Virus record (IMG/VR): IMGVR_UViG_2541047861_000012
Location: 1 to 19,841 of that record
DNA: 19,841 bases
Strand: one strand, 5' to 3'
Origin: a virus
Taxonomy: Duplodnaviria > Heunggongvirae > Uroviricota > Caudoviricetes
In this document: in pieces, positions 1 through 14,300 of the stretch
Layout of the letters: every line of letters starts with the position of its first letter
How positions within the stretch are numbered: position 1 is the stretch's first letter
Notes under the pieces: model-generated
The model's database searches: none
Told to the model about the DNA's origin: nothing
The model's input: the letters and a program-made list of their open reading frames with translations, nothing else
Translations under genes and position numbers: made by a program

Positions 1-516
1 ATGAAATTTAAAAAATGTCTTCTGCCTGTGGCAATGTTAGCGTCATTCACTCTGGCAGGATGCCAGTCAAATGCTGATGATCATGCCGCCGATGTTTATC
101 AAACCGATCAACTGAATACCAAACAAGAAACTAAAACCGTTAATATTATTTCCATTCTTCCCGCAAAAGTTGCCGTAGACAACGCCCAAAATAAACGGAA
201 CGCACAAGCCTTCGGCGCGCTTATTGGCGCTGTCGCTGGCGGTGTTATCGGCCACAACGTCGGGTCTGGCAGCAATTCCGGAACGACGGCAGGTGCAGTT
301 GGCGGCGGAGCTGTAGGCGCGGCAGCGGGTTCTATGGTGAATGATAAAACCTTAGTGGAAGGTGTTTCTTTAACATATAAGGAAGGCACCAAAGTGTATA
401 CCTCCACCCAGGTGGGTAAAGAGTGCCAGTTTACGACAGGTTTAGCCGTTGTTATTACCACGACGTATAACGAAACGCGTATTCAGCCAAATACCAAATG
501 TCCTGAAAAGAGCTAA
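1..516 (+). CDS. outer-membrane lipoprotein with glycine-zipper domain (SlyB/YcfJ-like)
   Basis: ATG at window position 1; lipoprotein signal peptide MKFKKCLLPVAMLASFTLAGC with lipobox LAGC; Gly/Ala-rich stretch GALIGAVAGGVIGHNVGSG...GAVGGGAVGAAAG typical of glycine-zipper lipoproteins; stop 514-516. Family call from motif recall only. Confidence 0.7.
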   Translation: MKFKKCLLPVAMLASFTLAGCQSNADDHAADVYQTDQLNTKQETKTVNIISILPAKVAVDNAQNKRNAQAFGALIGAVAGGVIGHNVGSGSNSGTTAGAVGGGAVGAAAGSMVNDKTLVEGVSLTYKEGTKVYTSTQVGKECQFTTGLAVVITTTYNETRIQPNTKCPEKS

Positions 517-531
517 TAATCAGGAGGAGTC

Positions 532-1071
532 ATGAAGAAAGTTTTTCTTTGCGCCATCTTAGCCTCCTTAAGCTATCCGGCTATCGCCTCATCATTGCAG
601 GATCAACTCTCGGCTGTCGCAGAAGCGGAACAGCAAGGTAAAAATGAAGAGCAAAGGCAGCATGACGAATGGGTCGCGGAGCGCAACAGGGAAATCCAGC
701 AAGAGAAGCAACGTCGCGCAAACGCCCAGGCCGCGGCTAATAAAAGAGCGGCAACGGCAGCAGCGAATAAGAAAGCTCGTCAGGATAAACTGGACGCCGA
801 AGCCACTGCGGACAAAAAACGCGATCAAAGTTATGAAGATGAGCTACGTAGCTTAGAGATTCAGAAACAAAAACTGGCGCTGGCGAAAGAAGAAGCCCGC
901 GTCAAGCGCGAAAACGAATTTATCGATCAGGAACTGAAGCACAAAGCTGCGCAAACCGATGTGGTGCAATCTGAAGCTGACGCAAACAGAAATATGACTG
1001 AAGGCGGTCGCGATCTGATGAAAAGCGTGGGTAAAGCAGAAGAGAATAAATCAGATAGCTGGTTTAACTAA
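532..1071 (+). CDS. secreted/periplasmic coiled-coil protein of unknown function
   Basis: AGGAGG Shine-Dalgarno at 522-527 just upstream of ATG 532; signal peptide MKKVFLCAILASLSYPAIASS; remainder Lys/Glu/Ala/Gln-rich and coiled-coil-like; followed by terminator 1110-1144. Confidence 0.65.
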   Translation: MKKVFLCAILASLSYPAIASSLQDQLSAVAEAEQQGKNEEQRQHDEWVAERNREIQQEKQRRANAQAAANKRAATAAANKKARQDKLDAEATADKKRDQSYEDELRSLEIQKQKLALAKEEARVKRENEFIDQELKHKAAQTDVVQSEADANRNMTEGGRDLMKSVGKAEENKSDSWFN

Positions 1072-1109
1072 ACGATGTTAGTAACTTCAAACCTATAATT
1101 CTTTAGGAT

Positions 1110-1144
1110 AAAAAAACCCTCTGTAGTAACAGAGGGTTTTGTTC
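1110..1144. terminator. bidirectional rho-independent terminator
   Basis: 8-bp stem CCCTCTGT (1117-1124) / ACAGAGGG (1129-1136), 4-nt loop, flanked by A7 (1110-1116) and TTTTGTT (1137-1143). This gives a U-tract on both strands, between convergent gene 532-1071 (+) and the lysis operon ending at 1290 (-). Confidence 0.65.
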
Positions 1145-1289
1145 ATTCATAGTGCAGGGTCAAATCATTCCCACTCAATTATTTACGATAACCATAACCA
1201 ATTGAGTGATAACATTTTTCCAAAGATGAATTTTTCCCATACCGTTTTATATACCGTCACCGGAAATCAGTACCATGAAAAATGCCATG

Positions 1290-1772
1290 CTATCTGGTCA
1301 GGGTGTCGTACTGTTTTTCGCAGACTCTTCCGGCTTCGGCTGCCCGGTCAGCATACTCTGCCAGTTGTCTGTTTCTCTCGAGAGATTTGCTGAGCACGTC
1401 GGCAAGCAAAACTCCGGTGTCTGCGGCTGACGACCCAGCGCCGACAATGGCGTTATAGTGCCTGAGCTGCTCACGGATGGCAACGAGCTGTTGCTGCAAC
1501 CGGCCAGCGCGAGCGGCAGCATCAAGAGCATCATTGCGCGCCTGGTCGATCCTCTGCTGCGATTCACGTTCATTGATCGCTTTCTCCTGTTCGTAGTGCT
1601 GACGAACTCTCTCATCTTCAGTTTTGCGGTCTTCTTTCGCCTGAGCATACCCGGCGTCGTACTGACGACTGCCGTGCACATTCCAGGCAACAACTCCTGA
1701 TGTGGCAAGAACAGCAAGCATCGCCACGATAATCAAATGTTTCCAGTATGCTTTTACGAATGCCCAGATCAT
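1290..1772 (-). CDS. i-spanin (Rz-like inner-membrane spanin subunit)
   Basis: Start ATG overlaps endolysin stop (ATGA, 1769-1772); N-terminal TM helix [18 protein letters not shown] then charged coiled-coil periplasmic domain; contains an embedded +1-frame lipoprotein ORF; sits directly after the endolysin. Confidence 0.75.
1298..1534 (-). CDS. o-spanin (Rz1-like outer-membrane lipoprotein) embedded in +1 frame of the i-spanin gene
   Basis: Internal ATG-ATG (1534-1529) within ORF 1298-1717 gives about 78 aa [17 protein letters not shown]... with lipobox LALAGC; Pro/Ser/Thr-rich mature part with Cys residues; fully inside the Rz-like gene (stops at 1298-1300 versus 1290-1292). Exact start uncertain. 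Confidence 0.6.
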   Translation of the reverse strand: MMLLMLPLALAGCSNSSLPSVSSSGTITPLSALGRQPQTPEFCLPTCSANLSRETDNWQSMLTGQPKPEESAKNSTTP

Positions 1773-2398: not shown

Positions 2399-2696
2399 GT
2401 TTAGACCTCGTTATTTTGAAAATTTGAACGACGTTACCGCGAGTTTTAAGAACCGCAGCAAGCATGACAGCGTTAATAATGACCTCAGATAAATCCACAG
2501 CCATTGGCGTACGTAACCAGATTGCATAGGCGACTCGAACAGGAATACTGGCCGCAGCAACAATCAGGAAATAAGCAAGCCATCCTCCCCACCTTCGGTG
2601 TTGAGAGCCGTTACGCCGGAATGTGACAACGCGAATTGCTATGCCAGTGCAAATAACTGCATTGGTGATAAGCAAAAAAAACTCATGCGTTACCAT
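2388..2696 (-). CDS. holin-like small membrane protein (second holin or antiholin)
   Basis: 102 aa; hydrophobic segments [54 protein letters not shown]; basic C-terminal tail; overlaps 2683-3087 by 14 nt and the endolysin by 11 nt. Confidence 0.55.
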
Positions 2697-3087
2697 CGTC
2701 TTTTCTCCCCGGAATTAACTCGCGTGGATTATCGGAAAGGTGATAGAGCCATATACCAATACGCACAGCGACAATTGCTGACACGAATGCGCCTGCAGAG
2801 AAAACAATCCCTTTTTCAAAAGAGTCCTGCGTGATGGTAGGGATCAGGCTAGCTATGCCGATAAGAATTGATGCTGCTGGTTTGTAAAAGAGAAGGCCGC
2901 AAAGAAAGCTGAGCATCGACAGGAGCACCCGGCGACGGATGGGGTACTCTACTGCAGAGGTAACAAAAATTACCGCCCCAGCCAAAGCCCCTAAAGCAAC
3001 CTCCGGAGGGACACCTGCAATAACCGCAGCAAGAGAACCAAAACTAAGCAACTGATTTAATTGCTCACTTGTTACTTGAGCAGACAT
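2683..3087 (-). CDS. holin (class I-like, 3-4 TM segments)
   Basis: 134 aa; AGGAG about 5 nt upstream of ATG 3087 on the minus strand; several TM helices and charged C-terminus [13 protein letters not shown]; first gene of the lysis cassette. Confidence 0.65.
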   Translation of the reverse strand: MSAQVTSEQLNQLLSFGSLAAVIAGVPPEVALGALAGAVIFVTSAVEYPIRRRVLLSMLSFLCGLLFYKPAASILIGIASLIPTITQDSFEKGIVFSAGAFVSAIVAVRIGIWLYHLSDNPRELIPGRKDDGNA

Positions 3088-3368: not shown

Positions 3369-3395
3369 CCCGCAAAATATTGCGGGCTTTTTTTT
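3369..3395 (+). terminator. rho-independent terminator oriented for plus-strand transcription
   Basis: 7-bp stem CCCGCAA (3369-3375) / TTGCGGG (3380-3386), loop AATA, then C plus T8 (3388-3395). The minus-strand RNA would have no U-tract after the hairpin (reads UAUCAAAAACGG). Confidence 0.5.
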
Positions 3396-6300
3396 AACGT
3401 TCTTCCAGAGACTGAATCCGCTCTTTTATCTTATCCATTTCTCTGCGCTGCCATGCTGCCTCGATATAGAATAAGAGATCAGGTCTGACCCCCCATCTAG
3501 ATCCTGCTGGCGTTATTTCAACGCGCTCAATGATGTCTTCCATTACCATCACTGGATTATCATCCTCATCAACAATGATGCTCCCGTCATTATCAGTCAG
3601 CTGTATTTCCCTTTGGCCAGTAATGACGTCATCATATACTGCGGGATAATCGTCATAGCAAAGAAAGGCATAGCGGCATGTTGTGCTTTCTTCTTCCATG
3701 AGTCCGTGAGAAATAAGAACATCACGAAGTTGCTGCGCGATTACACCATGATGTATCCTCGCCCCTTCTTCTCCCTTTATAGCGACAGCGTTCAGCCATT
3801 TATAAGCGATATACCTGACGTCACCCCAGGCATCCAGCAATGCTTCGTCAGGAGAGACCGGCTCTGTCTTTAATGTTCCGTCACTGGTAACCACAGGATT
3901 GGAGCCAAGATAAACTGTCGAGAACCTGTTTCCCGGACCACCAAGAGCATTTACATTATCAAGATAAGGTTTAACATCTCCGTTCTCAAAAAGATGTTCG
4001 AGTGCGTTATATACCGCGCGACGTGGAGTACTGCTTCCGGAACCATGCAACGTTATCATTGCACCATCTGCTGAAGACGTTGTTTCACCGCCGCTAACGA
4101 TTAATCTCTGAGCGGTAACATCATCAGACGGTACTTTCTTCGCAATAATGGCGTAATTGCCCTCCAGTTTGACTTCCGCGCGAACTTGTCCTGATGTACC
4201 TGCATGGACAGTCAGTGACTGGACGGCAACATCATCTGTGAAATCAACGGGTACAGGAACCGTCCTCACGCCGGACGTCGACATAAAAGTAGGAAGCGTT
4301 CTGTTAGGAGTGGCTCCGTAGACAAAATCCCTTGAAACAAATTCTTCCTGTTTAATTTTCACCCTGAAACAATACAAATCAGCCGGGTGACCATCGTGAA
4401 CATAAGGATATTTTCTGTTGTTATCCCCTATGCTCCATGGGTTTAGAAAGTCTTCCCCACCGAAAATGTAGTACAGCCAGTTGTCTTTGATACAAACTGA
4501 ACCAACACCAACCGCAGAGTTAACTATTCCGCCCTGATAAATCTGATCAGTAACATTAACCCACTCTACATTATCCAGACTCCACTCATTGACGTTAACT
4601 CTGGTCATAAATGTTCTTGGATAATTTCCTGCATAACGGTTATCAGGTTCTCCTCCTTCCCACTCACCAAATGCGCGCTCACTGCCAAAAATAATCAGCT
4701 CATCGCCAACTTTGGCAAAAGGAAGGTTTGAGTGATGAACATTATTTGGGAAGCGAAGAGAATTCCATGATGCACCTAAATCAGAGCTTCTGTGCAATGA
4801 ACTACCGGGTTGAGTACTTAATGTCCCCCTGGTCGTCAGATACAGAATGCCATCATAATATTTTACACATGGCTCAGATGCATTCGCCTCATATTCTGCA
4901 GGTATGCGTCTGCGAACAAAGCTACCAGGAGAACCGAAAGCATCAGAGAAATAGAGTATCCCAAGCTCGCGTGGACCAATATCACCATTATGGTAGCCAA
5001 CAGCAAAACTGTTATCGCTAATCGTCGCAAAACTGTGAATCTCAGTAACAGGAGTGCTTCCGTCAACAAAAGAAGAAATAGTTCCAAGACTGGTTTTTCT
5101 CCATGGTGACGAGTGAAATGATGTACCAAAACTCCAGTATCTACCCTCGTTATTCTGATCCACATCCTGAGTATTTTGCGTCGTAACTGTAAAAGTATTT
5201 TTATCAATAACAGTAGTCACCGTCATATTCCCGGTAACACCTGTAACACCAGAGTTTGAGAAGTTGACAAAATCACCAGCAAATAATCCGTGATCAGTAA
5301 TGCGAATATAAGCGACTTGCTGATTTGCTGCTTTCGTTATACCACCATAAACGCGAAGGCTGCGACTCATTGGACGATCCCACAACTCTGCAACCTGCAG
5401 TTTATTTCCGCGCACGGTCCGCGTCTCAATTACAGCAAAAAGGCGATTTCTGACAACCCCCATACTCATGCAGTGATAGTTAACTGTGGGATAGTTTTCA
5501 TGTAAATCTGTAAGCCATTCCGGCGTTGTCCAGGTCTTCCCGTCATCTCCTGAGCGAACCCATGCAACATGGAGGTTATTTACACCATGGCGGTCTCCAG
5601 CCATAAAAGGCGCATAGATGACATTGTCATATACAAACGTTTTATCCTGCGTCCAGGCGTTGTACCACGGTGTATCTGTAATTTTAAATAACTCTCCCTG
5701 GATAAAATCTTCAGAAGCATAAAAAAGAGGCTGACCCGGTATTCTCTCAAATAAAAAACGAGCATTTTTAAATCGGCTGACATCCGGAAGAGTTGATACT
5801 TTAAAAGTAAGCCCTAATCCGTCAATTTTATAACCTGGAGATGAGGCTTCAAGGCACGCGCTTATTGCAGTGGAATCGTCATTTATACCATCACCAACAG
5901 CTCCAAAATCTTTGGGGCTAATAGCATCACGCATTTTATCCTGGAACGTTCGGTATACTGCCCCAGAACCATACTGAATAAACCAACCAAAACCACCAAC
6001 AACCCCGGCGATTGCAGCATCGACATAATTACGCATTGAGCGATTATTTACAGCGTCCTGTTCAAGTGATGGATCTGCAAGGTTAGAAATTCTGTTTTGC
6101 TTTGCATCGTAATATTTTGCAAGCAAAGATGGTTTCATCAATGCACGTCTGAACCATCCAAAACATTGCTGGATCAGCATCGTCAGGTAGTCAAAGGCAT
6201 CTTCATGCACTTCGGGGAAAAACTTTCCCTGATTGCGAAGGTCTGTCTCCTGCACTACATCAAGCACACGATCTATCGTAATTCTCCATCCAGTAGCAAG

Positions 6301-6513
6301 CGGCGACGGAAGAACCACAGAACCGCCACTATAAGTGCCCGCCCCAGTTACCGTATAACCGGTATCCAGAACCAATTCTGTTACGTTCCCGTTCAGGTCA
6401 GACACCTGAACAACCAGGTCGGATTTTCTGAAAATTCGAAAAGTATACGGAAACGATGTCGTAACGCCGTTACCGGTGTATTCGTTGTGGTCAACTTCGG
6501 TTGAGACCGTCAT
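3394..6513 (-). CDS. tailspike/tail fibre with depolymerase domain (T7 gp17-like N-terminal anchor, Asp-box sialidase-like region, C-terminal S74 intramolecular-chaperone domain)
   Basis: GGAG 7 nt upstream of ATG 6513; residues about 10-115 resemble the T7 tail-fibre N-terminal particle-binding domain; pectate-lyase-like motif DFGAVGDGINDDSTAISA (201-219); Asp boxes SGDDGKTW (321-328) and SSDLGASW (576-583); predicted autocleavage site VVTS/DG (877/878) followed by a chaperone-like C-terminus. Substrate not determinable by eye. Confidence 0.85.
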   Translation of the reverse strand: MTVSTEVDHNEYTGNGVTTSFPYTFRIFRKSDLVVQVSDLNGNVTELVLDTGYTVTGAGTYSGGSVVLPSPLATGWRITIDRVLDVVQETDLRNQGKFFPEVHEDAFDYLTMLIQQCFGWFRRALMKPSLLAKYYDAKQNRISNLADPSLEQDAVNNRSMRNYVDAAIAGVVGGFGWFIQYGSGAVYRTFQDKMRDAISPKDFGAVGDGINDDSTAISACLEASSPGYKIDGLGLTFKVSTLPDVSRFKNARFLFERIPGQPLFYASEDFIQGELFKITDTPWYNAWTQDKTFVYDNVIYAPFMAGDRHGVNNLHVAWVRSGDDGKTWTTPEWLTDLHENYPTVNYHCMSMGVVRNRLFAVIETRTVRGNKLQVAELWDRPMSRSLRVYGGITKAANQQVAYIRITDHGLFAGDFVNFSNSGVTGVTGNMTVTTVIDKNTFTVTTQNTQDVDQNNEGRYWSFGTSFHSSPWRKTSLGTISSFVDGSTPVTEIHSFATISDNSFAVGYHNGDIGPRELGILYFSDAFGSPGSFVRRRIPAEYEANASEPCVKYYDGILYLTTRGTLSTQPGSSLHRSSDLGASWNSLRFPNNVHHSNLPFAKVGDELIIFGSERAFGEWEGGEPDNRYAGNYPRTFMTRVNVNEWSLDNVEWVNVTDQIYQGGIVNSAVGVGSVCIKDNWLYYIFGGEDFLNPWSIGDNNRKYPYVHDGHPADLYCFRVKIKQEEFVSRDFVYGATPNRTLPTFMSTSGVRTVPVPVDFTDDVAVQSLTVHAGTSGQVRAEVKLEGNYAIIAKKVPSDDVTAQRLIVSGGETTSSADGAMITLHGSGSSTPRRAVYNALEHLFENGDVKPYLDNVNALGGPGNRFSTVYLGSNPVVTSDGTLKTEPVSPDEALLDAWGDVRYIAYKWLNAVAIKGEEGARIHHGVIAQQLRDVLISHGLMEEESTTCRYAFLCYDDYPAVYDDVITGQREIQLTDNDGSIIVDEDDNPVMVMEDIIERVEITPAGSRWGVRPDLLFYIEAAWQRREMDKIKERIQSLEER

Positions 6514-6687: not shown

Positions 6688-6709
6688 TTATTGCATGGAG
6701 AATATTAAG

Positions 6710-6967
6710 ATGCAGCAGTATCACTATCCACTGGAAGACGGATTTACCGAAAGGATTCACACGCCGGGAGGCGTCAGGTCACTGGTGGAGGGATCGCACT
6801 TGATGAAATTACTCCGGGATCTCGATAAGGATGGATTTAATGTCGATGGCCCACTTGCCGAACTGACTGCACTGATTAACTACGTCACCAGCTCACAGAT
6901 GTCTATGCAGGATCTGCAAACACATCTCGACTATTGTGCCGAACAATTACGAAAACAAACCAGATAA
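6710..6967 (+). CDS. small stand-alone homologue of the antirepressor C-terminal module
   Basis: GGAG at 6697-6700, 9 nt before ATG 6710 (the in-frame ATG at 6695 has no SD); 85 aa; SHLMKLLRDLDKDGFNVDGPLAELTALINYV...MQDLQTHLDY aligns with the shared C-terminus of 7283-7978 and 8987-9925 (SLLMNLLNQLQEDGHDVSGAAAELTTMFCYIV...LRDIQTHAEY). Confidence 0.55.
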   Translation: MQQYHYPLEDGFTERIHTPGGVRSLVEGSHLMKLLRDLDKDGFNVDGPLAELTALINYVTSSQMSMQDLQTHLDYCAEQLRKQTR

Positions 6968-6997
6968 GATTTGAAATTACCAATAGGAGTGCTTATA

Positions 6998-7014
6998 TTT
7001 ACCTTTGCGGTAAA
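6998..7014. promoter_or_regulatory. operator-like palindrome TTTACC-N5-GGTAAA (copy 1)
   Basis: TTTACC (6998-7003), TTTGC, GGTAAA (7009-7014), nested inside a longer inverted repeat GGAGTGC (6986-6992) / GCACTCC (7023-7029). Identical half-sites recur at 8151-8167. Confidence 0.3.
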
Positions 7015-7105
7015 TTTACATCGCACTCCTCTTGTGCCATAGTAATCGGGCACTGGCAAAATCCAGTGCCGGGATTGGCGTCCCGGATTACTAAAAGGCG
7101 CATTC

Positions 7106-7125
7106 ACCGCGCAAGCGGTTTTTTT
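7106..7125 (+). terminator. weak rho-independent terminator in the leader of the Bro-N antirepressor gene
   Basis: Short stem ACCGC (7106-7110) / GCGGT (7115-7119), loop GCAA, then a T-run to 7125; preceded by hairpins at 7049-7070 and 7069-7086 that share bases. Confidence 0.3.
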
Positions 7126-7282
7126 ATGCGTATAGCACGGCCACATTCGTATTATGGTGGGCTGTGTGGGGGCACCGAAAGGTGCGCCGGGTCCTTTTAG
7201 CCGGTTACGCCAACCCTGCACAGTTCACCACCAACCGATTGGCGTCGGTAGTGGTGATTAACCAGACTAAAAGGTAACCACT

Positions 7283-7978
7283 ATGACAGCTACAAAAAGC
7301 ACGTCCATTTTTTCTTTCGAATCCCAAGCCGATATACGGGTAATCGTCATTAATGGTGAGCCATGGTTTATCGCTTCAGATGTTTGTCGGGCTATAGGCA
7401 TAGCAAACCATCGAGATGCTGTTCGAAAACTTGATGATGATGAGAAGGGCGTCGCTTCAACCGACACCCCTGGCGGTGAGCAAGAATCGATCATCATCTC
7501 CGAGTCAGGCCTCTACACACTGATCCTCCGCTGCCGCGACGCAGTGACACCAGGCACTATCCCCTACCGCTTTCGTAAATGGGTTACAGGTGAGGTTCTT
7601 CCTCAGATCCGCCGCACCGGAAGTTACATTAAAAACTCGCTCCCGCAGGAAGAACGCATAAAGATGGTTGCCGACCAGGTAGCCAACGCCACAGCATCAG
7701 CAGTGATGCAGGCAATGAAGATAGAGAACAAAACCTACAGTGCCCCGCTGAAGCCCGGCTACCGCAGTTTGATTCACTCGCCGTCTGGTGTTCTCGGCCT
7801 GACGGAGAACTCACTGCTGATGAATTTGCTGAACCAGTTACAGGAAGACGGGCATGACGTATCGGGCGCGGCGGCGGAACTGACCACCATGTTCTGCTAC
7901 ATCGTCGGTGTGAGTAAATGCCTGCGTGATATCCAGACTCACGCGGAGTACATCAACGACAAAGCAGGATTCTTCTGA
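7283..7978 (+). CDS. antirepressor-like protein (Bro-N N-terminal domain plus shared antirepressor C-terminal module)
   Basis: AAGG about 8 nt upstream of ATG 7283; Bro-N signature FESQADIRVIVINGEPWFIASDVCRAIG...ESGLYTLILRCRDAVTPGTIPYRFRKWVTGEVLPQIRRTG; last 77 residues identical to those of 8987-9925. Confidence 0.8.
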   Translation: MTATKSTSIFSFESQADIRVIVINGEPWFIASDVCRAIGIANHRDAVRKLDDDEKGVASTDTPGGEQESIIISESGLYTLILRCRDAVTPGTIPYRFRKWVTGEVLPQIRRTGSYIKNSLPQEERIKMVADQVANATASAVMQAMKIENKTYSAPLKPGYRSLIHSPSGVLGLTENSLLMNLLNQLQEDGHDVSGAAAELTTMFCYIVGVSKCLRDIQTHAEYINDKAGFF

Positions 7979-8000
7979 CGGGCGGCGGCACAGGGATGTG
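7745..8000. repeat. inverted repeat copy A (3' end of gene 7283-7978 plus about 22 bp)
   Basis: Reverse complement matches 8964-9220 at about 93% identity (16 mismatches in the 231 coding nt plus one indel in the 3' flank). Similarity begins exactly at the first codon of the shared 77-aa module. Confidence 0.85.
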
Positions 8001-8150
8001 CCTTTAAATAATTCTGTACAGATTGCAGACTGGGGGTGAATAGCGTACTATTACCTCACGGGTGATCCATAGCGATTAGGCACCGATACAGGAGGAGCCC
8101 ACATGAGAAAATTTGACGAGTACGAAGGCGTTTAACATTCGGATAGTTCA

Positions 8151-8167
8151 TTTACCCTAATGGTAAA
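8151..8167. promoter_or_regulatory. operator-like palindrome TTTACC-N5-GGTAAA (copy 2), about 40 bp upstream of gene 8207-8842
   Basis: TTTACC (8151-8156), CTAAT, GGTAAA (8162-8167); TA-rich -10-like sequence TATATATTAT at 8187-8196; GAGG SD at 8197-8200. Confidence 0.35.
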
Positions 8168-8206
8168 TCCCGCTTAAAGAAGCATCTATATATTATGAGG
8201 TGATGT

Positions 8207-8842
8207 ATGCCACAACAACTGCTGAATCCGGCAAAGGTAACTGAGGTTTTCGCTCATCTGAACGAAACTCCAGACAACCGCGCCCTGTATTCAGAGTTAG
8301 TGAACGGCAACGATGTCACATCTGATGTCAAAGGCGTTTCTCTGGCTCCTGGATACCGCGTTGTCCGTGTAGACGATCGTAAGAAAGGCGAGATTCCACA
8401 GGCGCACTTTGAACTGTCATTGATAAATGACCTCACCGAAGAGGTAGTGTATTACAATCGTGTCATTATCCAGCCTGACAGCTATCTTAACTGCCGTCCT
8501 GTCACGCAGATATTGGTATGGAGAACCCAGAAGCCTAAGCATCGTGCTGTGCTTCATGATTTCGCTGGCATCATCTTCATGAACTACCTCTTGGAACGGT
8601 ACGATATCATCGTGTCTGATCGCAACCAGACTCATGAAGGCATGTCGTTCTGGCAGGCTCGCATGTATGACGCACTGGAACTTGGCCTCCATCTCTATGG
8701 TTACGACATGATGACATGCGAACTTATAGAGATGAATAACGAGGAAGAACTTGAGAAAGGTGAAACCTGGTTGTGGGGTGATGCGGAAAACTTCCAAAAC
8801 AGATTGGCCATAATTTCAAAGCATAAGCTGCCAATAAAATAG
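8207..8842 (+). CDS. hypothetical protein, 211 aa, no recognisable domain (orphan moron between the two antirepressor genes)
   Basis: ATG 8207 with GAGG SD 6 nt upstream; uninterrupted 211-codon ORF; no TM segment or signal peptide; own strong terminator at 8851-8871; lies inside the segment bracketed by the 256-bp inverted repeat. Confidence 0.7.
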   Translation: MPQQLLNPAKVTEVFAHLNETPDNRALYSELVNGNDVTSDVKGVSLAPGYRVVRVDDRKKGEIPQAHFELSLINDLTEEVVYYNRVIIQPDSYLNCRPVTQILVWRTQKPKHRAVLHDFAGIIFMNYLLERYDIIVSDRNQTHEGMSFWQARMYDALELGLHLYGYDMMTCELIEMNNEEELEKGETWLWGDAENFQNRLAIISKHKLPIK

Positions 8843-8850
8843 TTCTTTAA

Positions 8851-8871
8851 GCCCGCGCCGCGGGCTTTTTT
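8851..8871 (+). terminator. rho-independent terminator of gene 8207-8842
   Basis: GC-rich hairpin GCCCGCG...CGCGGGC (8851-8865) followed by T6 (8866-8871). Confidence 0.7.
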
Positions 8872-8910
8872 GTGTCTGCGGATTCCCGCCCGGGCGGCGG
8901 TGGCATTCGT

Positions 8911-8935
8911 TAAAAACAAGGCCGCGAAAGCGGCC
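8911..8935 (-). terminator. rho-independent terminator of the arc-ant operon
   Basis: Stem GGCCGC (8920-8925) / GCGGCC (8930-8935) with GAAA loop; on the minus strand the hairpin is followed by UUGUUUUUA (plus 8911-8919). A further palindrome CCGCCCGGGCGG (8886-8897) lies between the two convergent terminators. Confidence 0.6.
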
Positions 8936-8963
8936 TGTGACATGTCACGCTAGTTTCGTTTTG

Positions 8964-9220
8964 CACGTCCCTGTGCCGCCGTTCTGTCAGAAGAACCCTG
9001 CCTTGTCGTTGATGTATTCCGCGTGCGTCTGGATATCACGCAGGCATTTGCTCACACCAACGATGTAGCAGAACATGGTGGTCAGCTCCGCCGCCGCGCC
9101 CGATACATCGTGCCCGTCTTCCTGTAACTGGTTCAGCAGATTCATCAGCAGTGAGTTCTCCGTCAGGCCGAGAACACCCGACGGCGAATGAATCAGACTG
9201 CGGTAGCCTGGCTTCAATGG
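8964..9220. repeat. inverted repeat copy B (3' end of gene 8987-9925 plus about 23 bp)
   Basis: Partner of 7745-8000; see copy A. Confidence 0.85.
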
Positions 9221-9925
9221 ATAACCATAACATTTTGTCTGTGTTTTAATTGCCTCACGAAGCGCATCTAACATCTTGACTGCCACTTCATCATTCTCTG
9301 ATGCAGATCCAGCAGGGAGATACTCCCCTTCAAGCGGAACCCGAGCAACAAGAGACAACGCTTCGGCAAATTGATCTTCACCAATTTCTTTGTACGAACA
9401 GCCAAAATGAGATTTCAGTGACGACCACATGGTGATCATCGCCTTAGCCTGTTTTTCTTTTGGCAGAGACTGACCGCGACTCATGACGAGTTGTTTAATG
9501 GCTTCCTGCTGTTCAGTTGTTATTTTACCCGGCAACGCCTTTTTAGCTTTGCGTGGGTTAACCACATGGCCTTTAGTCCAGTACTCGTAGAGCACATCGT
9601 CACACTCTTCCTGATACTGGATTACCTTGTCGCGGATTTCAGGGCGGACTTTGTTAGGGCTGATGCTGTTCAACCAAGCTGCCAATTTTCGTAAAGCCAT
9701 ACAAATCATGGCTTGCACCCCACCGGCAGAAGGTATGGTGATTTCCACCATACCCTTCGAGAAGCGTTGAGAAATCTTCTTATGTTGAGATTTCCAGTCT
9801 AGCCCCATTCCCTCAACGATAGGTTTCATTGGGGTATACGGTTCGCCGTTGTGATTGACAACATAAAGCTCTGCGCCGTGGAATGGCACGTTGATAGTAG
9901 ATACTGCTGTTGCTATACTCGTCAT
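8987..9925 (-). CDS. ant: antirepressor (Ant-like; AntA/P22-Ant-type N-terminal domain plus shared C-terminal module)
   Basis: 312 aa; follows the arc-like gene on the same strand after a 72-bp spacer; N-terminal region INVPFHGAELYVVNHNGEPYTPMKPIVEGMGLDWKSQHKKI resembles phage antirepressor N-terminal domains; C-terminal 77 aa identical to 7283-7978. The symbol is given by position and domain analogy to P22 ant. Confidence 0.8.
   Translation of the reverse strand: MTSIATAVSTINVPFHGAELYVVNHNGEPYTPMKPIVEGMGLDWKSQHKKISQRFSKGMVEITIPSAGGVQAMICMALRKLAAWLNSISPNKVRPEIRDKVIQYQEECDDVLYEYWTKGHVVNPRKAKKALPGKITTEQQEAIKQLVMSRGQSLPKEKQAKAMITMWSSLKSHFGCSYKEIGEDQFAEALSLVARVPLEGEYLPAGSASENDEVAVKMLDALREAIKTQTKCYGYPLKPGYRSLIHSPSGVLGLTENSLLMNLLNQLQEDGHDVSGAAAELTTMFCYIVGVSKCLRDIQTHAEYINDKAGFF
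9891..9919 (+). promoter_or_regulatory. candidate sigma70 promoter for an antisense (sar-like) RNA
   Basis: -35 TTGATA (9891-9896), 17-bp spacer, -10 TATACT (9914-9919); predicted start near 9926, i.e. opposite the ant start codon (9923-9925). Confidence 0.4.
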
Positions 9926-9999
9926 GTCGTTAATTCCTATACGTAGTTTTACGATACTGAAGCCCTGACGGTCTGGCCACCGTGGGGCTTCGCTGTTTT
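9926..9999 (+). ncRNA. predicted sar-like antisense RNA covering the arc-ant intercistronic region and ant ribosome-binding site
   Basis: Transcript predicted from promoter 9891-9919; ends at stem GAAGCCC (9959-9965) / GGGCTTC (9985-9991) with inner stem ACGG/CCGT, followed by GCUGUUUUA (9992-10000). About 70 nt, same size and topology as P22 sar RNA. Confidence 0.35.
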
Positions 10000-10165
10000 A
10001 TGCCACGCTATTCTTCTCACCAGTGAGTCCATACACTTTCCTCAGCTGATAGATAATCTCTGTATTGAACTTTCGGCATTCTTTTTCGCCATTTCTTTCA
10101 ATAGCTAACTTCACATCGTCCGGAAAACGAACTCGTCGTTGACACATCTCTTTTGCTTTTTGCAT
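9998..10165 (-). CDS. arc: Arc-like ribbon-helix-helix repressor
   Basis: AAGGAG SD 7 nt upstream of ATG 10165 (the longer ORF from 10186 lacks an SD); 55 aa MQKAKEMCQRRVRFPDDVKLAIERNGEKECRKFNTEIIYQLRKVY... matches the Arc/MetJ RHH pattern (compare P22 Arc RWPREV...NGRSVNSEIYQRV); first gene of an arc-ant operon. Confidence 0.8.
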   Translation of the reverse strand: MQKAKEMCQRRVRFPDDVKLAIERNGEKECRKFNTEIIYQLRKVYGLTGEKNSVA

Positions 10166-10179
10166 TTCATATCTCCTTA

Positions 10180-10248
10180 GCCCCACCGTGGGGCAAAATA
10201 ATTGTCACACCGTGCGTCATTGATGTCAAGCACACGGTGAGGCATACT
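10180..10248. promoter_or_regulatory. immI-type control region: overlapping divergent promoters with repeated CACCGTG/CACGGTG operator heptads
   Basis: Near-palindrome GCCCCACCGTGGGGC (10180-10194); CACCGTG at 10208-10214; CACGGTG at 10233-10239; a fourth copy GCCACCGTGGGGC at 9976-9988. Minus-strand promoter: -35 TTGACA (complement of 10224-10229), -10 GACAAT (complement of 10201-10206). Plus-strand promoter: -35 TTGATG (10220-10225), -10 CATACT (10243-10248). The heptad core matches the CCACGGTGG core I recall for the P22 Mnt operator. Confidence 0.55.
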
Positions 10249-10285
10249 TCAATCATTGCAAGTAACTCAATATTTGGTGAAGAAC

Positions 10286-10717
10286 ATGAGCAGAGAAGAT
10301 CCACAACTAAGGATCAGACTTCCCGTCGAAGTAAAAGAAAAAATAGAAATTTCTGCAAAAGCCAATAAGCGATCAATGAACGCTGAAATAGTACAACGTC
10401 TTGACACCAGCTTTCTGAAAGATATTCATGAAGATGACGTAATTTCTGCTTATGAAGCAAAAATCATTGCAAACAATGCACGACATGAAATATCAAATAT
10501 TATTTTCAAAAGAACCTTTAATGAAATTAATAAGAAAATAACACTTGGACATACAAGTTTTTATATAAACCTTAATGACCTTGAACTGGAATCACTTGCA
10601 GATAATGATTACCAGATCATCTTTGAAAAAACATTTAATAGGCTCAATGAACTAGGTTACATCATCTGTGAAAACTCATGGGATGCAGATGGTTTTGGAA
10701 TTGAAATACCTGAATAG
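10286..10717 (+). CDS. mnt: Mnt-like ribbon-helix-helix repressor with a novel C-terminal extension (chimeric)
   Basis: ATG 10286 preceded by GGTGA (the ORF track begins at TTG 10256); N-terminus MSREDPQLRIRLPVEVKEKIEISAKANKRSMNAEIVQRL closely parallels P22 Mnt (ARDDPHFNFRMPMEVREKLKFRAEANGRSMNSELLQIV); 143 aa versus 83 aa for Mnt; the extra acidic C-terminal part lies in the AT-rich block. Confidence 0.75.
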   Translation: MSREDPQLRIRLPVEVKEKIEISAKANKRSMNAEIVQRLDTSFLKDIHEDDVISAYEAKIIANNARHEISNIIFKRTFNEINKKITLGHTSFYINLNDLELESLADNDYQIIFEKTFNRLNELGYIICENSWDADGFGIEIPE

Positions 10718-10807
10718 GAAGAACAAAAGGCGTGTACATATTACACGTCTTTAATACAATTGAAAAACGCCACATTACTGATGTATGTTACAACAAGGAG
10801 CGATATT

Positions 10808-11371
10808 TTGAAAACCATATCTATATTAAAGGTTGCATTAGGCGTCGCTATTATTTTGACTCTCTCAATATTGTTTTATTTTTACCACAAACAAACTGCT
10901 ATTGCTCTTGATAGTCACGCGGCAAACTCATTTTTCTCAGAGTACATAGTGCCGCTATCAGGAAGCGGTATAACAAATAAATATACTGACTATGACATCA
11001 AATATGGAATTGATGATGGGGAGACTATTGTATTACATGTAATCATTAAAAACCTAATGACAGTAAATAAAAATACAGACTTCAACGATAAAAATACAAT
11101 ACATCACAACAACAGCAAAACATTAATTTCTTATAGTAGCAACATCTATACGGATAAATACCTAAAATACATATCAGAAGATACAATAAAAGAAACCCGC
11201 GAAAAGTTAAAAAACATATATTGTGCATCCGGCAGTTTTCACAAATTATCGCCGCAAGAGCGTTTATTCTACGAAGCAAGAAAACAACGTAAGTCAATAA
11301 TATTACATTATTATGCTGATTCAGGGGAGACACTCATATTTAATATTGGGGTTTCCCCTGAATCATGCTAA
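10808..11371 (+). CDS. single-pass membrane protein of unknown function in the sieA position (candidate superinfection-exclusion/defence moron)
   Basis: AAGGAG (10795-10800) 7 nt before in-frame TTG 10808; alternative in-frame starts at ATG 10781 and TTG 10760 (ORF track). N-terminal TM helix ISILKVALGVAIILTLSILFYFY then an Asn/Lys/Tyr-rich soluble domain; very low G+C; stop 11 bp from the stop of the convergent 1004-aa gene. Confidence 0.65.
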   Translation: MKTISILKVALGVAIILTLSILFYFYHKQTAIALDSHAANSFFSEYIVPLSGSGITNKYTDYDIKYGIDDGETIVLHVIIKNLMTVNKNTDFNDKNTIHHNNSKTLISYSSNIYTDKYLKYISEDTIKETREKLKNIYCASGSFHKLSPQERLFYEARKQRKSIILHYYADSGETLIFNIGVSPESC

Positions 11372-11382
11372 AGGTGTTTAAC

Positions 11383-14300
11383 TCACCGCATCACCGGATC
11401 CACTTGGTTTATTAGTGGCGCAATCCAGAACAGGTTATTGCCGGGTATCAGGGTTCGGACATTATGCACAATACGATCACCGGCATCACCATTCAACACT
11501 CCTGAGGTCACATCAATGATGCTATCCGCAAGACCAAATGACGGTCCGAATAGAGATCCTACGAATCCACGACTGGCATACCTGGACTGTGTGCCAGTGC
11601 CAAATAAAGCCCCCAGCCCAACAGCACCACCAGTCGCCTTTTCAGCCATGTTGTTATATTCCATCAATGGCCCAAGAATACCGGATCTATCTATACCCTC
11701 AAGCACCAGCTTCTCTGGTGACCAGTCAACATTTTTCCCTTTCGATGCTTCTTTAAGCGCATAGACCAGTGAGCCAAGAGCAATCTGAAATGCAGTGCCA
11801 TAATAAAATTGCGCAGTTCCTTCCTGTAACCCACCAAGTAGCGCACGGTTGTATGAAGCCGTTGTGAATGATTTAAACTGAAATATCGTTCGCCCCATTG
11901 GAGTACTCGCCCATAAAGGTGTGTCACCAATACCGGGGGTGATGATAGTGTTATTAACGTCTTTCAGAACCGCTGACTGGAATACTCCGGCAACGTACTG
12001 ATCGTCCCATTTATCAAAGTTACCAATGTGCCATCCATCAATTACCTCACCATGTTTCTCGAACTCACTGCGAATACGCGCAGCCATATTGTCGTTGATA
12101 CCGAGTTTTGCCATGCGACGTGCAGAAAACGCACCAGACAAAATACCGTCTGACGTGAGCATTCCGTTCATGGATTTGTTTATGTCATTAAATCGATCCA
12201 TGAGTGTCAGCTTGCCGAAGGCATCAGTAATTCGCTCCATTCCTGCTTCGACTGCTGTTGTCCTGGAAGAACTGTCAACAAGATCACCAATTGCACGAGA
12301 ACGTGAATGTAGTACAGTTTCCAATCCAATCCCCATCTTCAACATCTCTTCTTTGCTGGCCTTAAATGCCGGTGATTGGGATATCTGAGAAGCATAGCCT
12401 TTCATGGAGTTACGGAAACCATTAACCATAACCCCTCTGGCCAGATCTGGAATAGCTGATACTGTCATTCCACCGAGTTTGGTCGTGAAGTTCACATCCC
12501 GCAGAAAAGCGCCAGCACGAACAAAAAACGAAGACGGGTCATCAGGCATACCATATGTACCAACAAGACGATCGCGTAATGCTGTTATGTCTCTGAGATC
12601 ATTTGCTCTTGATTTTGAAAGTCTGGACTGTTCTTTCCGTAATTCCTTTTCGTACTTTCGCATTAATGAATCGAGTTTACCCTGAGGAACAACTTCACCA
12701 TTGCTCTCATAACGTGCTTTCAGATTTGCCACACTTTCGTCATATTTCGCCTTTATTTTTTCAGGCACTTCCCGTAACAGACTGTCATATTCGTCCTCAA
12801 TTAATTGCAGACGCTCTGTCATAGTTCGTTTGCCAAATGTTCTCGTCAACTCAATTTCTGCTGCCGCTTCACGGATATGACGTTGTAGAACGTAATTCAC
12901 ATCACTTTCGAGATAATCCCTGATAAGACTATCAGGCACATTTAATGTTCTTTCTTTCGTACTACCTGCGGCTTTTACAGAAAATACGCTGACAAAATCC
13001 TGTGGAACCTTAGCACCAGTAATTTTATTAATTACGATATCCGCTGCAATTTCAGCATCCTCAGGATCCAGTGTTTTATTGCCTCTCGACCACCAGTCAA
13101 CCAAAATACGTCGAAATTTATCGCGTTCACTGATTATTTTTCCAACTTTATATATACGTGGGAAATAGCTTGCCTGGCCTAATGCTTTCAGTTCTTCATC
13201 TGGCGGCAATAAACCAAGCTTTTGCATTTCAACCTTCACCCGATTTAATACAGTTCGCATCGCCTGCGCCGTTTCCTGAACAACAGGATTAGCATGCACA
13301 TCACCGCTTCGCATAGCATTCCCAACCTGCTGACGAAATGAATCAAAACTCATGTCACCACCATCAGCTTTATACTTTGCGTATGCCTGTTTATTTCCGA
13401 CAACAACAGCAGCTTCTTCACGCTGCCATCCACGTGTACGGGTTTCTACAGCTACCGGTGTTTCAATCCCCCTTTCATTTCCTTTAAGGGTGAAATTATT
13501 TTCGGCTAACTCCAGCGTTGTTTTTCGCACTGTCTTGGACGGAGACTCCATTAACCTTGTCAAAGGAGTAAGATAGCTCCCTGCTTTCCATGCAGCCTTT
13601 CCAACCACCCCACCGGAAACAGGGGTTAAATCATCCAGAGTCGCTGTATCAATTTTCATAGCACCAACACTACCACCATCAGAAAGCGAAGCGGCAGCCC
13701 TGTCAGTCGCTGATGTAATGCTCATATTATCAAGAGCATCAGCAACCTCACGCGTGGCTGCAGCCCGGACGGATGGCGAAAGCGCAACACCAGCACTGGC
13801 AAACACGCCGCTCATCATCGCACCCGCTGCAATGTGAGCGGCACTTTCACCCCATGAGCGTGTTATTTGCTGATTATTCAGCACAACCTCGCTTAATGCT
13901 GTACCGGCTGCACCAATCGCAATCTGTGAGCCAATACGCGCCAGTGCCCCTCCTTGAGCACCGGGGATAAACATTGACGCAACAGTAACCGGATCCATTC
14001 CCGCAGCAATACTGGCAAGGGTTCCAACTACGCCAGCATCAGACAATAAACGTCTGTCTTCATTTTCATCATCTATCTGCTGCTTAATCCACGCCGTTTC
14101 CTCTGGCGATCGGGAATCTGCAAATTTCGCCCCCCAGTATTCATAACCGTGCAACTCATTTTTATCAGCATATGGGTTATAACCTTCGACCGGTTCAAAC
14201 TGTCTGGCTGGTCGGAAAAAACCAGCCAGAATATTGTTCTGTCGCATTGCAGCCCCCCATACGGAAGGCTCCGGTGGCAATGGCTCAGGATTAGCCCCTT

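What the first reader, a model, noticed from the sequence alone, without database searches (positions are those of the whole stretch)
1..1144. Two convergent secreted-protein genes in the bor position downstream of the lysis cassette
A glycine-zipper lipoprotein and a signal-peptide coiled-coil protein are transcribed toward the end of the Rz/Rz1 genes and share a bidirectional terminator with them. This is where lambda carries bor, a lipoprotein moron. They may be lysogenic-conversion genes affecting envelope properties, or the first host genes past the prophage end.
Basis: inference. Interest (0 to 1): 0.42.

Follow-up and report, generated by a model that had tools for sequence, protein, structure and literature searches.

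The report
Host genes yfgH-yfgI beside prophage end
The two secreted-protein genes are the ordinary E. coli chromosomal operon yfgH-yfgI, which lies just outside an epsilon15-like prophage inserted into the end of the neighbouring guaA gene, so they are not phage cargo.

Summary
Window 1-516 encodes a glycine-zipper lipoprotein and 532-1071 a signal-peptide, all-helical protein. Both point toward the Rz/Rz1 genes, with a strong two-way terminator hairpin (1113-1140) in between.

They are not bor-like morons. They are yfgH and yfgI, 170/171 and 178/179 residues identical to E. coli K-12. They occur in 5422 of 5426 complete E. coli genomes. In 4567 of those, yfgI abuts guaA directly with no prophage.

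The window matches K-12 up to base 1179. Bases 1163-1179 (AATCATTCCCACTCAAT) are the published 17-bp attachment core of epsilon15/phiV10-type phages (Uetakevirus), at the 3' end of guaA. The hairpin is the host's own yfgI/guaA terminator.

YfgH is a SlyB-like outer-membrane lipoprotein, and a 2025 preprint reports an outer-membrane-stabilising role. YfgI (DUF5384) has no established function; I infer it is a periplasmic partner of YfgH.

Side observations:
- yfgH directly precedes yfgI in 29 of 29 usable loci across genera.
- Diverged copies of the pair ride on P7-type phage-plasmids and small plasmids.
- One public phage record (TL-2011b) includes these host genes by mistake.

Interest is low; the finding is already known.

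The parts
1..516 (+). yfgH (b2505 orthologue): SlyB-like glycine-zipper outer-membrane lipoprotein. The annotated start codon lies 3 nt upstream of the window.
   Evidence: 170/171 aa identical to K-12 YfgH. Annotated yfgH in IHE3034 and K-12. PF05433 at 33.2 bits against a 24.2 cutoff. phmmer to SlyB 7OJF, E=4.5e-10 over residues 8-163. Lipobox LAGC read from the sequence.
522..527 (+). Shine-Dalgarno AGGAGG for yfgI, inside the 15-nt yfgH-yfgI spacer
   Evidence: Read from the sequence. A short yfgH-yfgI gap (about 10-35 nt; ORFs overlap in two loci) recurs in related loci.
532..1071 (+). yfgI (b2506 orthologue): DUF5384, Sec signal peptide followed by a long helical, highly charged mature protein
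   Evidence: 178/179 aa identical to K-12 YfgI. PF17358 at 209 bits. AF2 model is a single helix over residues 2-178, pLDDT 85.5.
1110..1140 (.). Host bidirectional intrinsic terminator of yfgI (+) and, in non-lysogens, of guaBA (-). In this lysogen it faces the Rz/Rz1 transcript instead.
   Evidence: dG -19.6 and -19.3 kcal/mol, z -5.0 and -5.6. Found by the terminator scan on the - strand. Identical in K-12 between yfgI and guaA.
1163..1179 (.). 17-bp att core AATCATTCCCACTCAAT. Bases 1165-1179 are the displaced last 15 nt of guaA (IEWE-stop on the - strand). This is the host/prophage junction.
   Evidence: Identity with K-12 ends at 1179. The same 17-mer lies at the int-guaA end of the prophage in IHE3034. 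It is the reverse complement of the published attP/attB 'attgagtgggaatgatt' of vB_EcoP_ZX5, phiV10 and epsilon15 (PMC9782041). It occurs once in the window; 0.01 expected by chance.
1180..1289 (-). Phage arm of the att site, AT-rich, between the core and the Rz stop codon
   Evidence: No similarity to K-12 beyond 1179. GC of 1072-1289 is 0.34.
1290..1772 (-). Rz-type i-spanin of the prophage. Context only; not part of the yfgHI unit.
   Evidence: PF10721 DUF2514 at 144.6 bits. Annotated 'Rz-like spanin' in TL-2011b.
1298..1534 (-). Embedded Rz1-type o-spanin lipoprotein (context only)
   Evidence: Translation [13 protein letters not shown].... phrog_11621 'Rz-like spanin', E=2.8e-36.

Best explanation
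Window 1-1144 is E. coli core chromosome. It holds the two-gene operon yfgH-yfgI and its intrinsic terminator.

A roughly 39.7-kb epsilon15/phiV10-type (Uetakevirus) prophage with a K1-capsule endosialidase tailspike has integrated by site-specific recombination. The site is the 17-bp core at the 3' end of guaA, the gene that normally converges on yfgI. Integration moved guaA about 40 kb away and placed the phage's last block (holins, endolysin, Rz/Rz1) opposite yfgI. That produces a layout that looks like lambda's Rz-bor arrangement. The yfgHI unit is untouched: the first phage-specific base (1180) is 108 nt past the yfgI stop codon and 39 nt past the terminator's T-run.

How the genes work:
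- YfgH. Shown by sequence here and by experiments in a preprint: it is a Lol-sorted outer-membrane lipoprotein of the SlyB type. Its glycine-zipper hairpin inserts in the outer membrane. It protects outer-membrane proteins and lipid order under envelope stress.
- YfgI. Inferred: it is exported by Sec, forms a long periplasmic helix or coiled coil, and acts together with YfgH. The basis is that the two genes are translationally close and always adjacent.
- The hairpin. Inferred from its structure: it stops yfgHI transcripts in one direction. In the other direction it stops guaBA transcripts in non-lysogens, and any read-through from the phage late/lysis operon in this lysogen.
For: Identity of the genes:
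- 170/171 and 178/179 aa identical to K-12 YfgH and YfgI.
- RefSeq annotates them as yfgH and yfgI in the matching genomes.

Core status:
- window:1-1300 matches 5422 of 5426 complete E. coli genomes; 5367 cover at least 80% of it.
- The empty-site junction (yfgI directly against guaA) is contiguous in 4567 genomes.
- The yfgI-Rz junction seen in this window occurs in 363 genomes.
- Non-lysogen E25 carries the same protein accessions as lysogen IHE3034.
- The order pdeF-yfgH-yfgI-guaA-guaB-xseA is kept in Salmonella bongori and Citrobacter.

Boundary:
- Identity with K-12 ends at 1179.
- The 17-bp direct repeat sits at both prophage ends, with the integrase next to guaA at the far end.
- The core equals the experimentally verified attP/attB of Uetakevirus phages (PMC9782041).

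Terminator: identical in K-12, with strong fold statistics.

Function:
- YfgH matches SlyB 7OJF at E=4.5e-10 and 1.3e-9 with a profile.
- yfgH lies directly upstream of yfgI in 29 of 29 usable loci, including genera where the flanking genes differ.
- The YfgI model is a single long helix.
Against: Nothing argues against the host-gene assignment.

Caveats on the functional part:
- The YfgH monomer model failed (pLDDT 39.4), so the SlyB-like fold rests on sequence similarity and on the preprint's own modelling.
- The preprint is not peer reviewed and never mentions yfgI.
- No data here show a YfgH-YfgI contact.
- The only reported yfgI phenotype, DNA-damage (nalidixic acid) susceptibility as cited in PMC11619404, has no obvious link to the outer membrane.
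- Diverged copies of the pair do occur on phage-plasmids and plasmids. The family is therefore not purely chromosomal, and the chromosomal copy may have been acquired long ago.
Confidence: 0.97

Rival explanations
1. One reading: the two genes are morons or lysogenic-conversion genes carried by this prophage in the position where lambda carries bor.
For: They sit directly after Rz/Rz1 on the opposite strand, as bor does in lambda (lambda layout from established knowledge). The public record 'Escherichia phage TL-2011b' lists them as gp54 and gp55. Both proteins fall in PHROG families phrog_1277 and phrog_1094.
Against: The att core at 1163-1179 puts both genes outside the prophage. They are present with identical proteins in non-lysogens. 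In the TL-2011b record the att core lies at 41,251-41,267, before gp54, so that record simply runs about 3.5 kb into host DNA, taking in yfgI, yfgH, yfgG and a pdeF fragment. Pfam gives no Bor match.
Confidence: 0.01
2. yfgH-yfgI is an anciently acquired mobile cassette. It would have been delivered by a plasmid or phage-plasmid and fixed next to guaA in an ancestor of Escherichia, Citrobacter and Salmonella. On this view it is host DNA today but of accessory origin. This is compatible with the best explanation; it concerns origin only.
For: The intact pair occurs on P7-type phage-plasmids at 69% and 47.5% aa identity. It occurs on 3.9-7.5-kb ColE1/MOBP plasmids at 61-70%. It occurs at unrelated chromosomal sites in Xenorhabdus (between plsY and tsaD), Pantoea and Commensalibacter. 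It is reported absent from S. Typhimurium but present in S. Typhi (PMC11619404). GC is 0.47-0.49, slightly below the E. coli average of about 0.51 (my own knowledge).
Against: It is near-universal in E. coli, with conserved synteny out to S. bongori and Citrobacter. No mobility genes or repeats flank it in the window or in K-12. The GC deviation is small. Transfer could equally have run from chromosome to plasmid.
Confidence: 0.3
3. The two genes are unrelated neighbours: YfgH acts alone, as SlyB does, and YfgI has a separate role in DNA-damage or quinolone tolerance.
For: The YfgH preprint explains its phenotypes without yfgI, and YfgH expressed alone rescues them. K-12 annotates yfgI as a 'nalidixic acid resistance protein', and PMC11619404 cites a DNA-damage phenotype. 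SlyB has no such partner gene (my own knowledge; not tested here).
Against: Adjacency holds in 29 of 29 loci, with a short spacer that persists across genera and on mobile elements where every other neighbour differs. The two families are similar in size and taxonomic spread: 315 and 260 hits. YfgI carries an export signal, so it cannot act directly on DNA.
Confidence: 0.25

Closest known systems
E. coli K-12 yfgH (b2505) and yfgI (b2506)
   Same: Orthologues at the same locus: 170/171 and 178/179 aa identical, with the same 15-nt spacer and the same terminator.
   Different: In K-12 the convergent neighbour is guaA. Here a prophage separates them.
SlyB (PDB 7OJF/7OJG), a PhoPQ-regulated outer-membrane lipoprotein that forms rings around lipid and OMP nanodomains
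   Same: YfgH aligns with it over nearly its full length (E=4.5e-10). Both have a lipobox, an N-terminal segment, a glycine-zipper hairpin and a C-terminal beta domain. The preprint reports similar outer-membrane-protective phenotypes.
   Different: Sequence identity is low. YfgH has two extra invariant Cys residues, C142 and C167. The preprint reports different suppressors: clsA for yfgH and the Mla pathway for slyB. YfgH always comes with a downstream yfgI.
Lambda bor (lipoprotein moron downstream of Rz, serum resistance)
   Same: Only the layout: a lipoprotein gene on the opposite strand just past Rz/Rz1.
   Different: bor lies inside the lambda genome, whereas yfgH lies outside the att core. 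There is no sequence relationship: no Lambda_Bor hit in Pfam.
TraT (plasmid surface-exclusion and complement-resistance lipoprotein; PDB 9FS5, 9E2V)
   Same: A weak similarity covers the glycine-rich and following beta region: Pfam PF05818 E=2.2e-6, and PDB hits at E=0.04-0.2. Both are outer-membrane lipoproteins. TraT appears as 10 chains per PDB entry.
   Different: The score of 28.1 bits is below Pfam's 31-bit cutoff, so YfgH is not a TraT family member. No exclusion or serum phenotype is known for it.
Phage P7 upf50.5 / upf50.0, and the same pair in SJ46, RCS47 and many P1-like phage-plasmids
   Same: The same two-gene module in the same order and spacing, at 69% and 47.5% aa identity.
   Different: These copies really are carried by a mobile element, between the c4-icd-ant immunity region and the late tail operon. 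Their function is unknown. The window's copy is the chromosomal one.
Uetakevirus integration at guaA (epsilon15, phiV10, vB_EcoP_ZX5)
   Same: An identical 17-bp core at the 3' end of guaA, with the integrase at the far end and the lysis genes at this end. ZX5's host is also a K1 strain.
   Different: None that bears on the finding. This prophage carries an endosialidase tailspike.

Membership tests
Prophage moron / lysogenic-conversion gene (bor-like) | Lies between the prophage's attL and attR | tested here: not met
   The att core is at 1163-1179. Both genes (1-1071) and their terminator lie on the host side.
Prophage moron / lysogenic-conversion gene (bor-like) | Absent from the locus in strains that lack the prophage | tested here: not met
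   Present next to guaA in K-12, in E25 and in 4567 of 5426 complete genomes with an uninterrupted site.
Prophage moron / lysogenic-conversion gene (bor-like) | Sequence membership of the Lambda Bor family | tested here: not met
   No Bor family among the Pfam hits at E<=0.01.
SlyB-like glycine-zipper outer-membrane lipoproteins (YfgH) | Lipoprotein signal peptide with a lipobox Cys and no Asp at position +2 | tested here: met
   ...FTLAGC|QS... read from the sequence. The Cys is invariant in 29 homologues. Outer-membrane fractionation is reported in the preprint.
SlyB-like glycine-zipper outer-membrane lipoproteins (YfgH) | Glycine zipper 2TM domain | tested here: met
   PF05433 at 33.2 bits against a 24.2 cutoff, residues 72-113.
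SlyB-like glycine-zipper outer-membrane lipoproteins (YfgH) | Full-length homology to SlyB of known structure | tested here: met
   7OJF_A at E=4.5e-10, query 8-163 against chain 6-154. With a profile, E=1.3e-9.
SlyB-like glycine-zipper outer-membrane lipoproteins (YfgH) | Ring-shaped oligomer enclosing lipid or OMP | not testable with these tools
   Only monomers can be modelled here, and the monomer model was poor (pLDDT 39.4). The preprint offers AF3 oligomer models only.
DUF5384 (YfgI) | Pfam PF17358 above the gathering score | tested here: met
   209 bits against a cutoff of 25, profile positions 1-145 of 145.
TraT family | Pfam PF05818 above the gathering score | tested here: not met
   28.1 bits against a cutoff of 31. 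This is a distant resemblance only.
Uetakevirus (epsilon15/phiV10-type) prophage integrated at guaA | 17-bp core attgagtgggaatgatt at the junction and duplicated at the other end next to the integrase | tested here: met
   Exact match at 1163-1179. The second copy at the int-guaA end was seen in the matching genome IHE3034, outside the window. The published core is in PMC9782041.
Intrinsic (Rho-independent) bidirectional terminator | GC-rich hairpin followed by a U-run on both strands | tested here: met
   An 8-bp GC-rich stem extended by A/U pairs. The - strand has 7 U; the + strand has UUUUGUU. dG about -19.5 kcal/mol, z about -5. Termination itself was not measured.
Two-component spanin Rz/Rz1 (context) | i-spanin with an embedded +1-frame lipoprotein o-spanin | tested here: met
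   DUF2514 at 144.6 bits. The embedded ORF at 1298-1534 has lipobox LAGC and matches phrog_11621 at E=2.8e-36.

The most novel reading that the evidence does not exclude
yfgH-yfgI is an obligate two-protein envelope module. A SlyB-like outer-membrane ring lipoprotein would work with a roughly 160-residue periplasmic helical partner. If that helix is fully extended it is about 23 nm long, comparable to the width of the periplasm. The module moves as a unit between chromosomes, small plasmids and P7-type phage-plasmids. Nothing of the kind applies to the copy in this window.
Probability: 0.3. Interest if true: 0.4.

Novelty: already known. Interest (0 to 1): 0.08.

Why it matters
For the scan, this is a clean negative. 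A layout that looks like a bor-type moron is simply the host side of a known attachment site.

There are three practical lessons.
1. In epsilon15-type prophages the lysis cassette is the terminal block, so whatever host gene lies beyond guaA's 3' end will mimic a moron.
2. The same mistake is already in public data. The TL-2011b phage record carries yfgI, yfgH, yfgG and a pdeF fragment. The PHROG family that contains YfgH-like proteins is labelled 'DNA methyltransferase', and four RefSeq phage records examined here (TL-2011b, P7, SJ46, RCS47) carry the same label on their YfgH-like gene.
3. The strict yfgH-yfgI pairing suggests that studies of YfgH should include YfgI, which the current preprint does not mention.

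Tried and rejected
- AlphaFold2 of YfgH with a 29-sequence alignment gave an unusable model (pLDDT 39.4). I therefore ran no fold search on it and relied on sequence similarity to SlyB.
- The YfgI model is a single helix. A fold search on a lone helix would be meaningless, so none was run.
- PDB sequence and profile searches for YfgI found nothing credible. The best hit was E=0.65, to a capsid protein.
- NCBIfam gave no family above its cutoff for either protein.
- No tRNA gene is present in the window, so a tRNA attachment site was excluded.
- Tandem Repeats Finder found nothing in 1-1300. The YfgI length variation among E. coli strains is therefore not explained by a detectable DNA tandem repeat in this allele.
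- The terminator scan reported the hairpin only on the - strand. This is because it absorbs the A/T runs into the stem; folding shows the structure on both strands.
- I considered whether the genes might be carried by specialised-transduction-like aberrant excision. I rejected this for lack of any evidence: the junction is the exact canonical core.

Full report
**What is in the sequence**

The window opens inside a + strand gene (1-516, 171 aa). A second + strand gene follows 15 nt later (532-1071, 179 aa), preceded by AGGAGG at 522-527.

The first protein has a lipoprotein signal ending in the lipobox LAGC, and a glycine-zipper 2TM domain (PF05433, 33.2 bits against a cutoff of 24.2).

The second protein has a Sec-type signal (…YPAIA|SS). 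Its mature part is 40% charged. It is a full-length DUF5384 (209 bits). AlphaFold2 models it as one uninterrupted helix (pLDDT 85.5).

On the - strand, the lysis block of a prophage converges on them:
- a holin-like gene, 2683-3087
- a holin, 2388-2696
- a GH19 endolysin, 1769-2398
- Rz, 1290-1772
- an embedded Rz1, 1298-1534

Between the two gene sets lies a hairpin at 1117-1136, flanked by A and T runs. It folds at about -19.5 kcal/mol on either strand, z about -5.

**What the genes are**

megablast of window:1-1300 against all complete E. coli genomes hit 5422 of 5426. RefSeq calls the genes yfgH and yfgI. They are 170/171 and 178/179 residues identical to K-12 b2505 and b2506. The annotated yfgH start is one codon upstream of window base 1, so the promoter is outside the window.

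**Where the prophage ends**

In K-12, yfgI is followed directly by convergent guaA.

Alignment shows the window identical to K-12 through the terminator and up to base 1179, then unrelated. The last shared 17 bases, AATCATTCCCACTCAAT (1163-1179), include the final 15 nt of guaA (…IEWE-stop).

In the matching lysogen IHE3034 the same 17-mer recurs about 39.7 kb away, between a tyrosine integrase and an intact guaA.

Its reverse complement, attgagtgggaatgatt, is the attP/attB core shown experimentally for vB_EcoP_ZX5 and reported for phiV10 and epsilon15 (PMC9782041).

The prophage is thus a Uetakevirus-type element integrated in the 3' end of guaA. Both genes and the hairpin are host DNA.

**Population test**

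- A 600-bp probe across the K-12 empty site is contiguous in 4567 of 5426 genomes.
- The yfgI-Rz junction seen here occurs in 363 genomes.
- Strain E25, with an empty site, encodes YfgH, YfgI and GuaA under the same protein accessions as lysogen IHE3034.
- The gene order pdeF-yfgH-yfgI-guaA-guaB-xseA is also kept in Salmonella bongori and Citrobacter.

The moron reading is refuted.

**The terminator**

The hairpin is identical in K-12. There it sits between the converging yfgI and guaA, so it is the host's bidirectional terminator. It faces Rz/Rz1 only because integration moved guaA away.

The phage arm that now abuts guaA carries a look-alike hairpin (CCCTCTG…CAGAGGG followed by a U-run on the guaA strand, -16.4 kcal/mol). 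From the geometry, I infer that integration swaps terminators. guaBA gets the phage copy, which also shields int, and the lysis operon gets the host copy.

**How the genes probably work**

YfgH aligns over almost its whole length with SlyB of known structure (7OJF, E=4.5e-10; profile E=1.3e-9). It resembles TraT only weakly, below Pfam's cutoff.

A December 2025 preprint (10.64898/2025.12.22.696046) reports that:
- YfgH fractionates with the outer membrane
- its deletion sensitises cells to SDS/EDTA and to depletion of BamA or LptD
- clsA mutations suppress the deletion phenotypes

My own monomer model of YfgH failed (pLDDT 39.4).

YfgI has no solved relative. It belongs to a small family: 278 cluster representatives at E<=1e-3 among 1.84 billion proteins. 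K-12 annotates it as a nalidixic-acid-resistance protein, and a DNA-damage phenotype is cited in PMC11619404.

I infer that YfgI is a periplasmic partner of YfgH. The basis is that a YfgH homologue lies immediately upstream on the same strand in 29 of 29 usable loci from a scan of species-representative genomes. That includes Xenorhabdus, Pantoea, Dryocola, Commensalibacter and an alphaproteobacterial MAG, where the flanking genes are different. No interaction was tested here. The preprint does not mention yfgI at all.

**A twist that does not rescue the finding**

Diverged copies of the intact pair are carried by mobile elements:
- P7 (upf50.5/upf50.0, 69% and 47.5% identity, between the c4-icd-ant region and the late tail operon), plus SJ46, RCS47 and other P1-like records
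- 186 plasmid records below 60% identity; the ones listed are about 74-99 kb
- 3.9-7.5-kb ColE1/MOBP plasmids, one of them beside a phosphoethanolamine transferase

So a phage-borne YfgH/YfgI pair does exist, but not in this phage and not at this locus.

**Data-quality observations**

The public record for phage TL-2011b (44,784 bp) contains the att core at 41,251-41,267. It then continues through yfgI, yfgH, yfgG and a pdeF fragment, about 3.5 kb of host DNA annotated as phage genes gp54-gp57.

phrog_1277, which YfgH matches end to end, is labelled 'DNA methyltransferase'. Four RefSeq phage records examined here (TL-2011b, P7, SJ46, RCS47) carry the same wrong product name on their YfgH-like gene.

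**Verdict**

The headline interpretation is refuted, and the stated alternative is confirmed. The genes are known core genes beside a published attachment site. Interest is low (0.08).

The only mildly new lead is the strict, mobile yfgH-yfgI pairing, which points to YfgI as an unstudied partner of a SlyB-like lipoprotein.

Noticed in passing
NC_019445.1 / JQ011317.1 (L010 11252-14785; record 41,251-44,784): The deposited genome of 'Escherichia phage TL-2011b' runs past the att core into about 3.5 kb of host chromosome. yfgI is annotated as gp54, yfgH as gp55 and yfgG as gp56, followed by a pdeF fragment. Host genes are therefore annotated as phage genes in a reference phage record.
   Followed up: yes
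phrog_1277; RefSeq NC_019445.1 gp55, NC_050152.1 upf50.5, NC_031129.1, NC_042128.1: The PHROG family that YfgH matches end to end (368 bits) is labelled 'DNA methyltransferase'. These four RefSeq phage records carry the same product name on a 171-aa SlyB-like lipoprotein. It looks like a mis-annotation.
   Followed up: partly
L011 5476-6540 (phage P7 upf50.5/upf50.0); plasmid hits H55-H75; L008, L009, L012: Diverged but intact yfgH-yfgI pairs are carried by P7-type phage-plasmids and by small ColE1/MOBP plasmids. On the 7.5-kb plasmid CP056397.1 the pair sits next to a phosphoethanolamine transferase gene.
   Followed up: partly
L013-L043 (29 usable loci): A YfgH homologue lies immediately upstream of every YfgI homologue, 29 of 29, even in Xenorhabdus (between plsY and tsaD), Pantoea, Commensalibacter and an alphaproteobacterial MAG. 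The two genes travel as a unit. The YfgH preprint never mentions yfgI.
   Followed up: yes
L003 about 21650-21700 (phage arm between int and guaA in IHE3034) versus window 1110-1140: The phage attP arm carries a hairpin closely resembling the host yfgI/guaA terminator (CCCTCTG..CAGAGGG plus a U-run, -16.4 kcal/mol). Integration therefore appears to swap terminators between guaBA and the phage lysis operon, and to shield int from guaBA read-through.
   Followed up: partly
window 3394-6513 (-): The tailspike is a complete endosialidase: End_N_terminal, beta-propeller at 770 bits, beta-barrel, tail-spike domain and a Peptidase_S74 chaperone. This epsilon15-type prophage therefore targets the K1 polysialic-acid capsule. 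The best-matching genomes include K1 and ExPEC/APEC strains.
   Followed up: partly
window 6700-11400: The accessory region between the tailspike and the injection and core proteins differs from IHE3034. The window has Bro-N (7283-7978), a P22 antirepressor-like protein (8987-9925) and an Arc-like repressor (10256-10717). IHE3034 has a YafO-family toxin there.
   Followed up: no
window 532-1071; homologues P0002-P0055: YfgI length varies among E. coli strains, from 165 to 180 aa (for example 179, 177, 175, 173, 170 and 169). The cause was not located, and no DNA tandem repeat was detected in this allele.
   Followed up: partly
window 1-516 (YfgH residues C142 and C167): Besides the lipobox Cys, two further cysteines are invariant in 29 YfgH homologues. 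This suggests a conserved disulfide in the periplasmic C-terminal domain.
   Followed up: no
L031, L040 (274-bp and 336-bp contigs of a Fredinandcohnia and a Brevibacterium assembly); P0100 (a protein labelled Staphylococcus aureus): Near-identical E. coli yfgI fragments appear in assemblies of Gram-positive organisms. This is almost certainly contamination.
   Followed up: no
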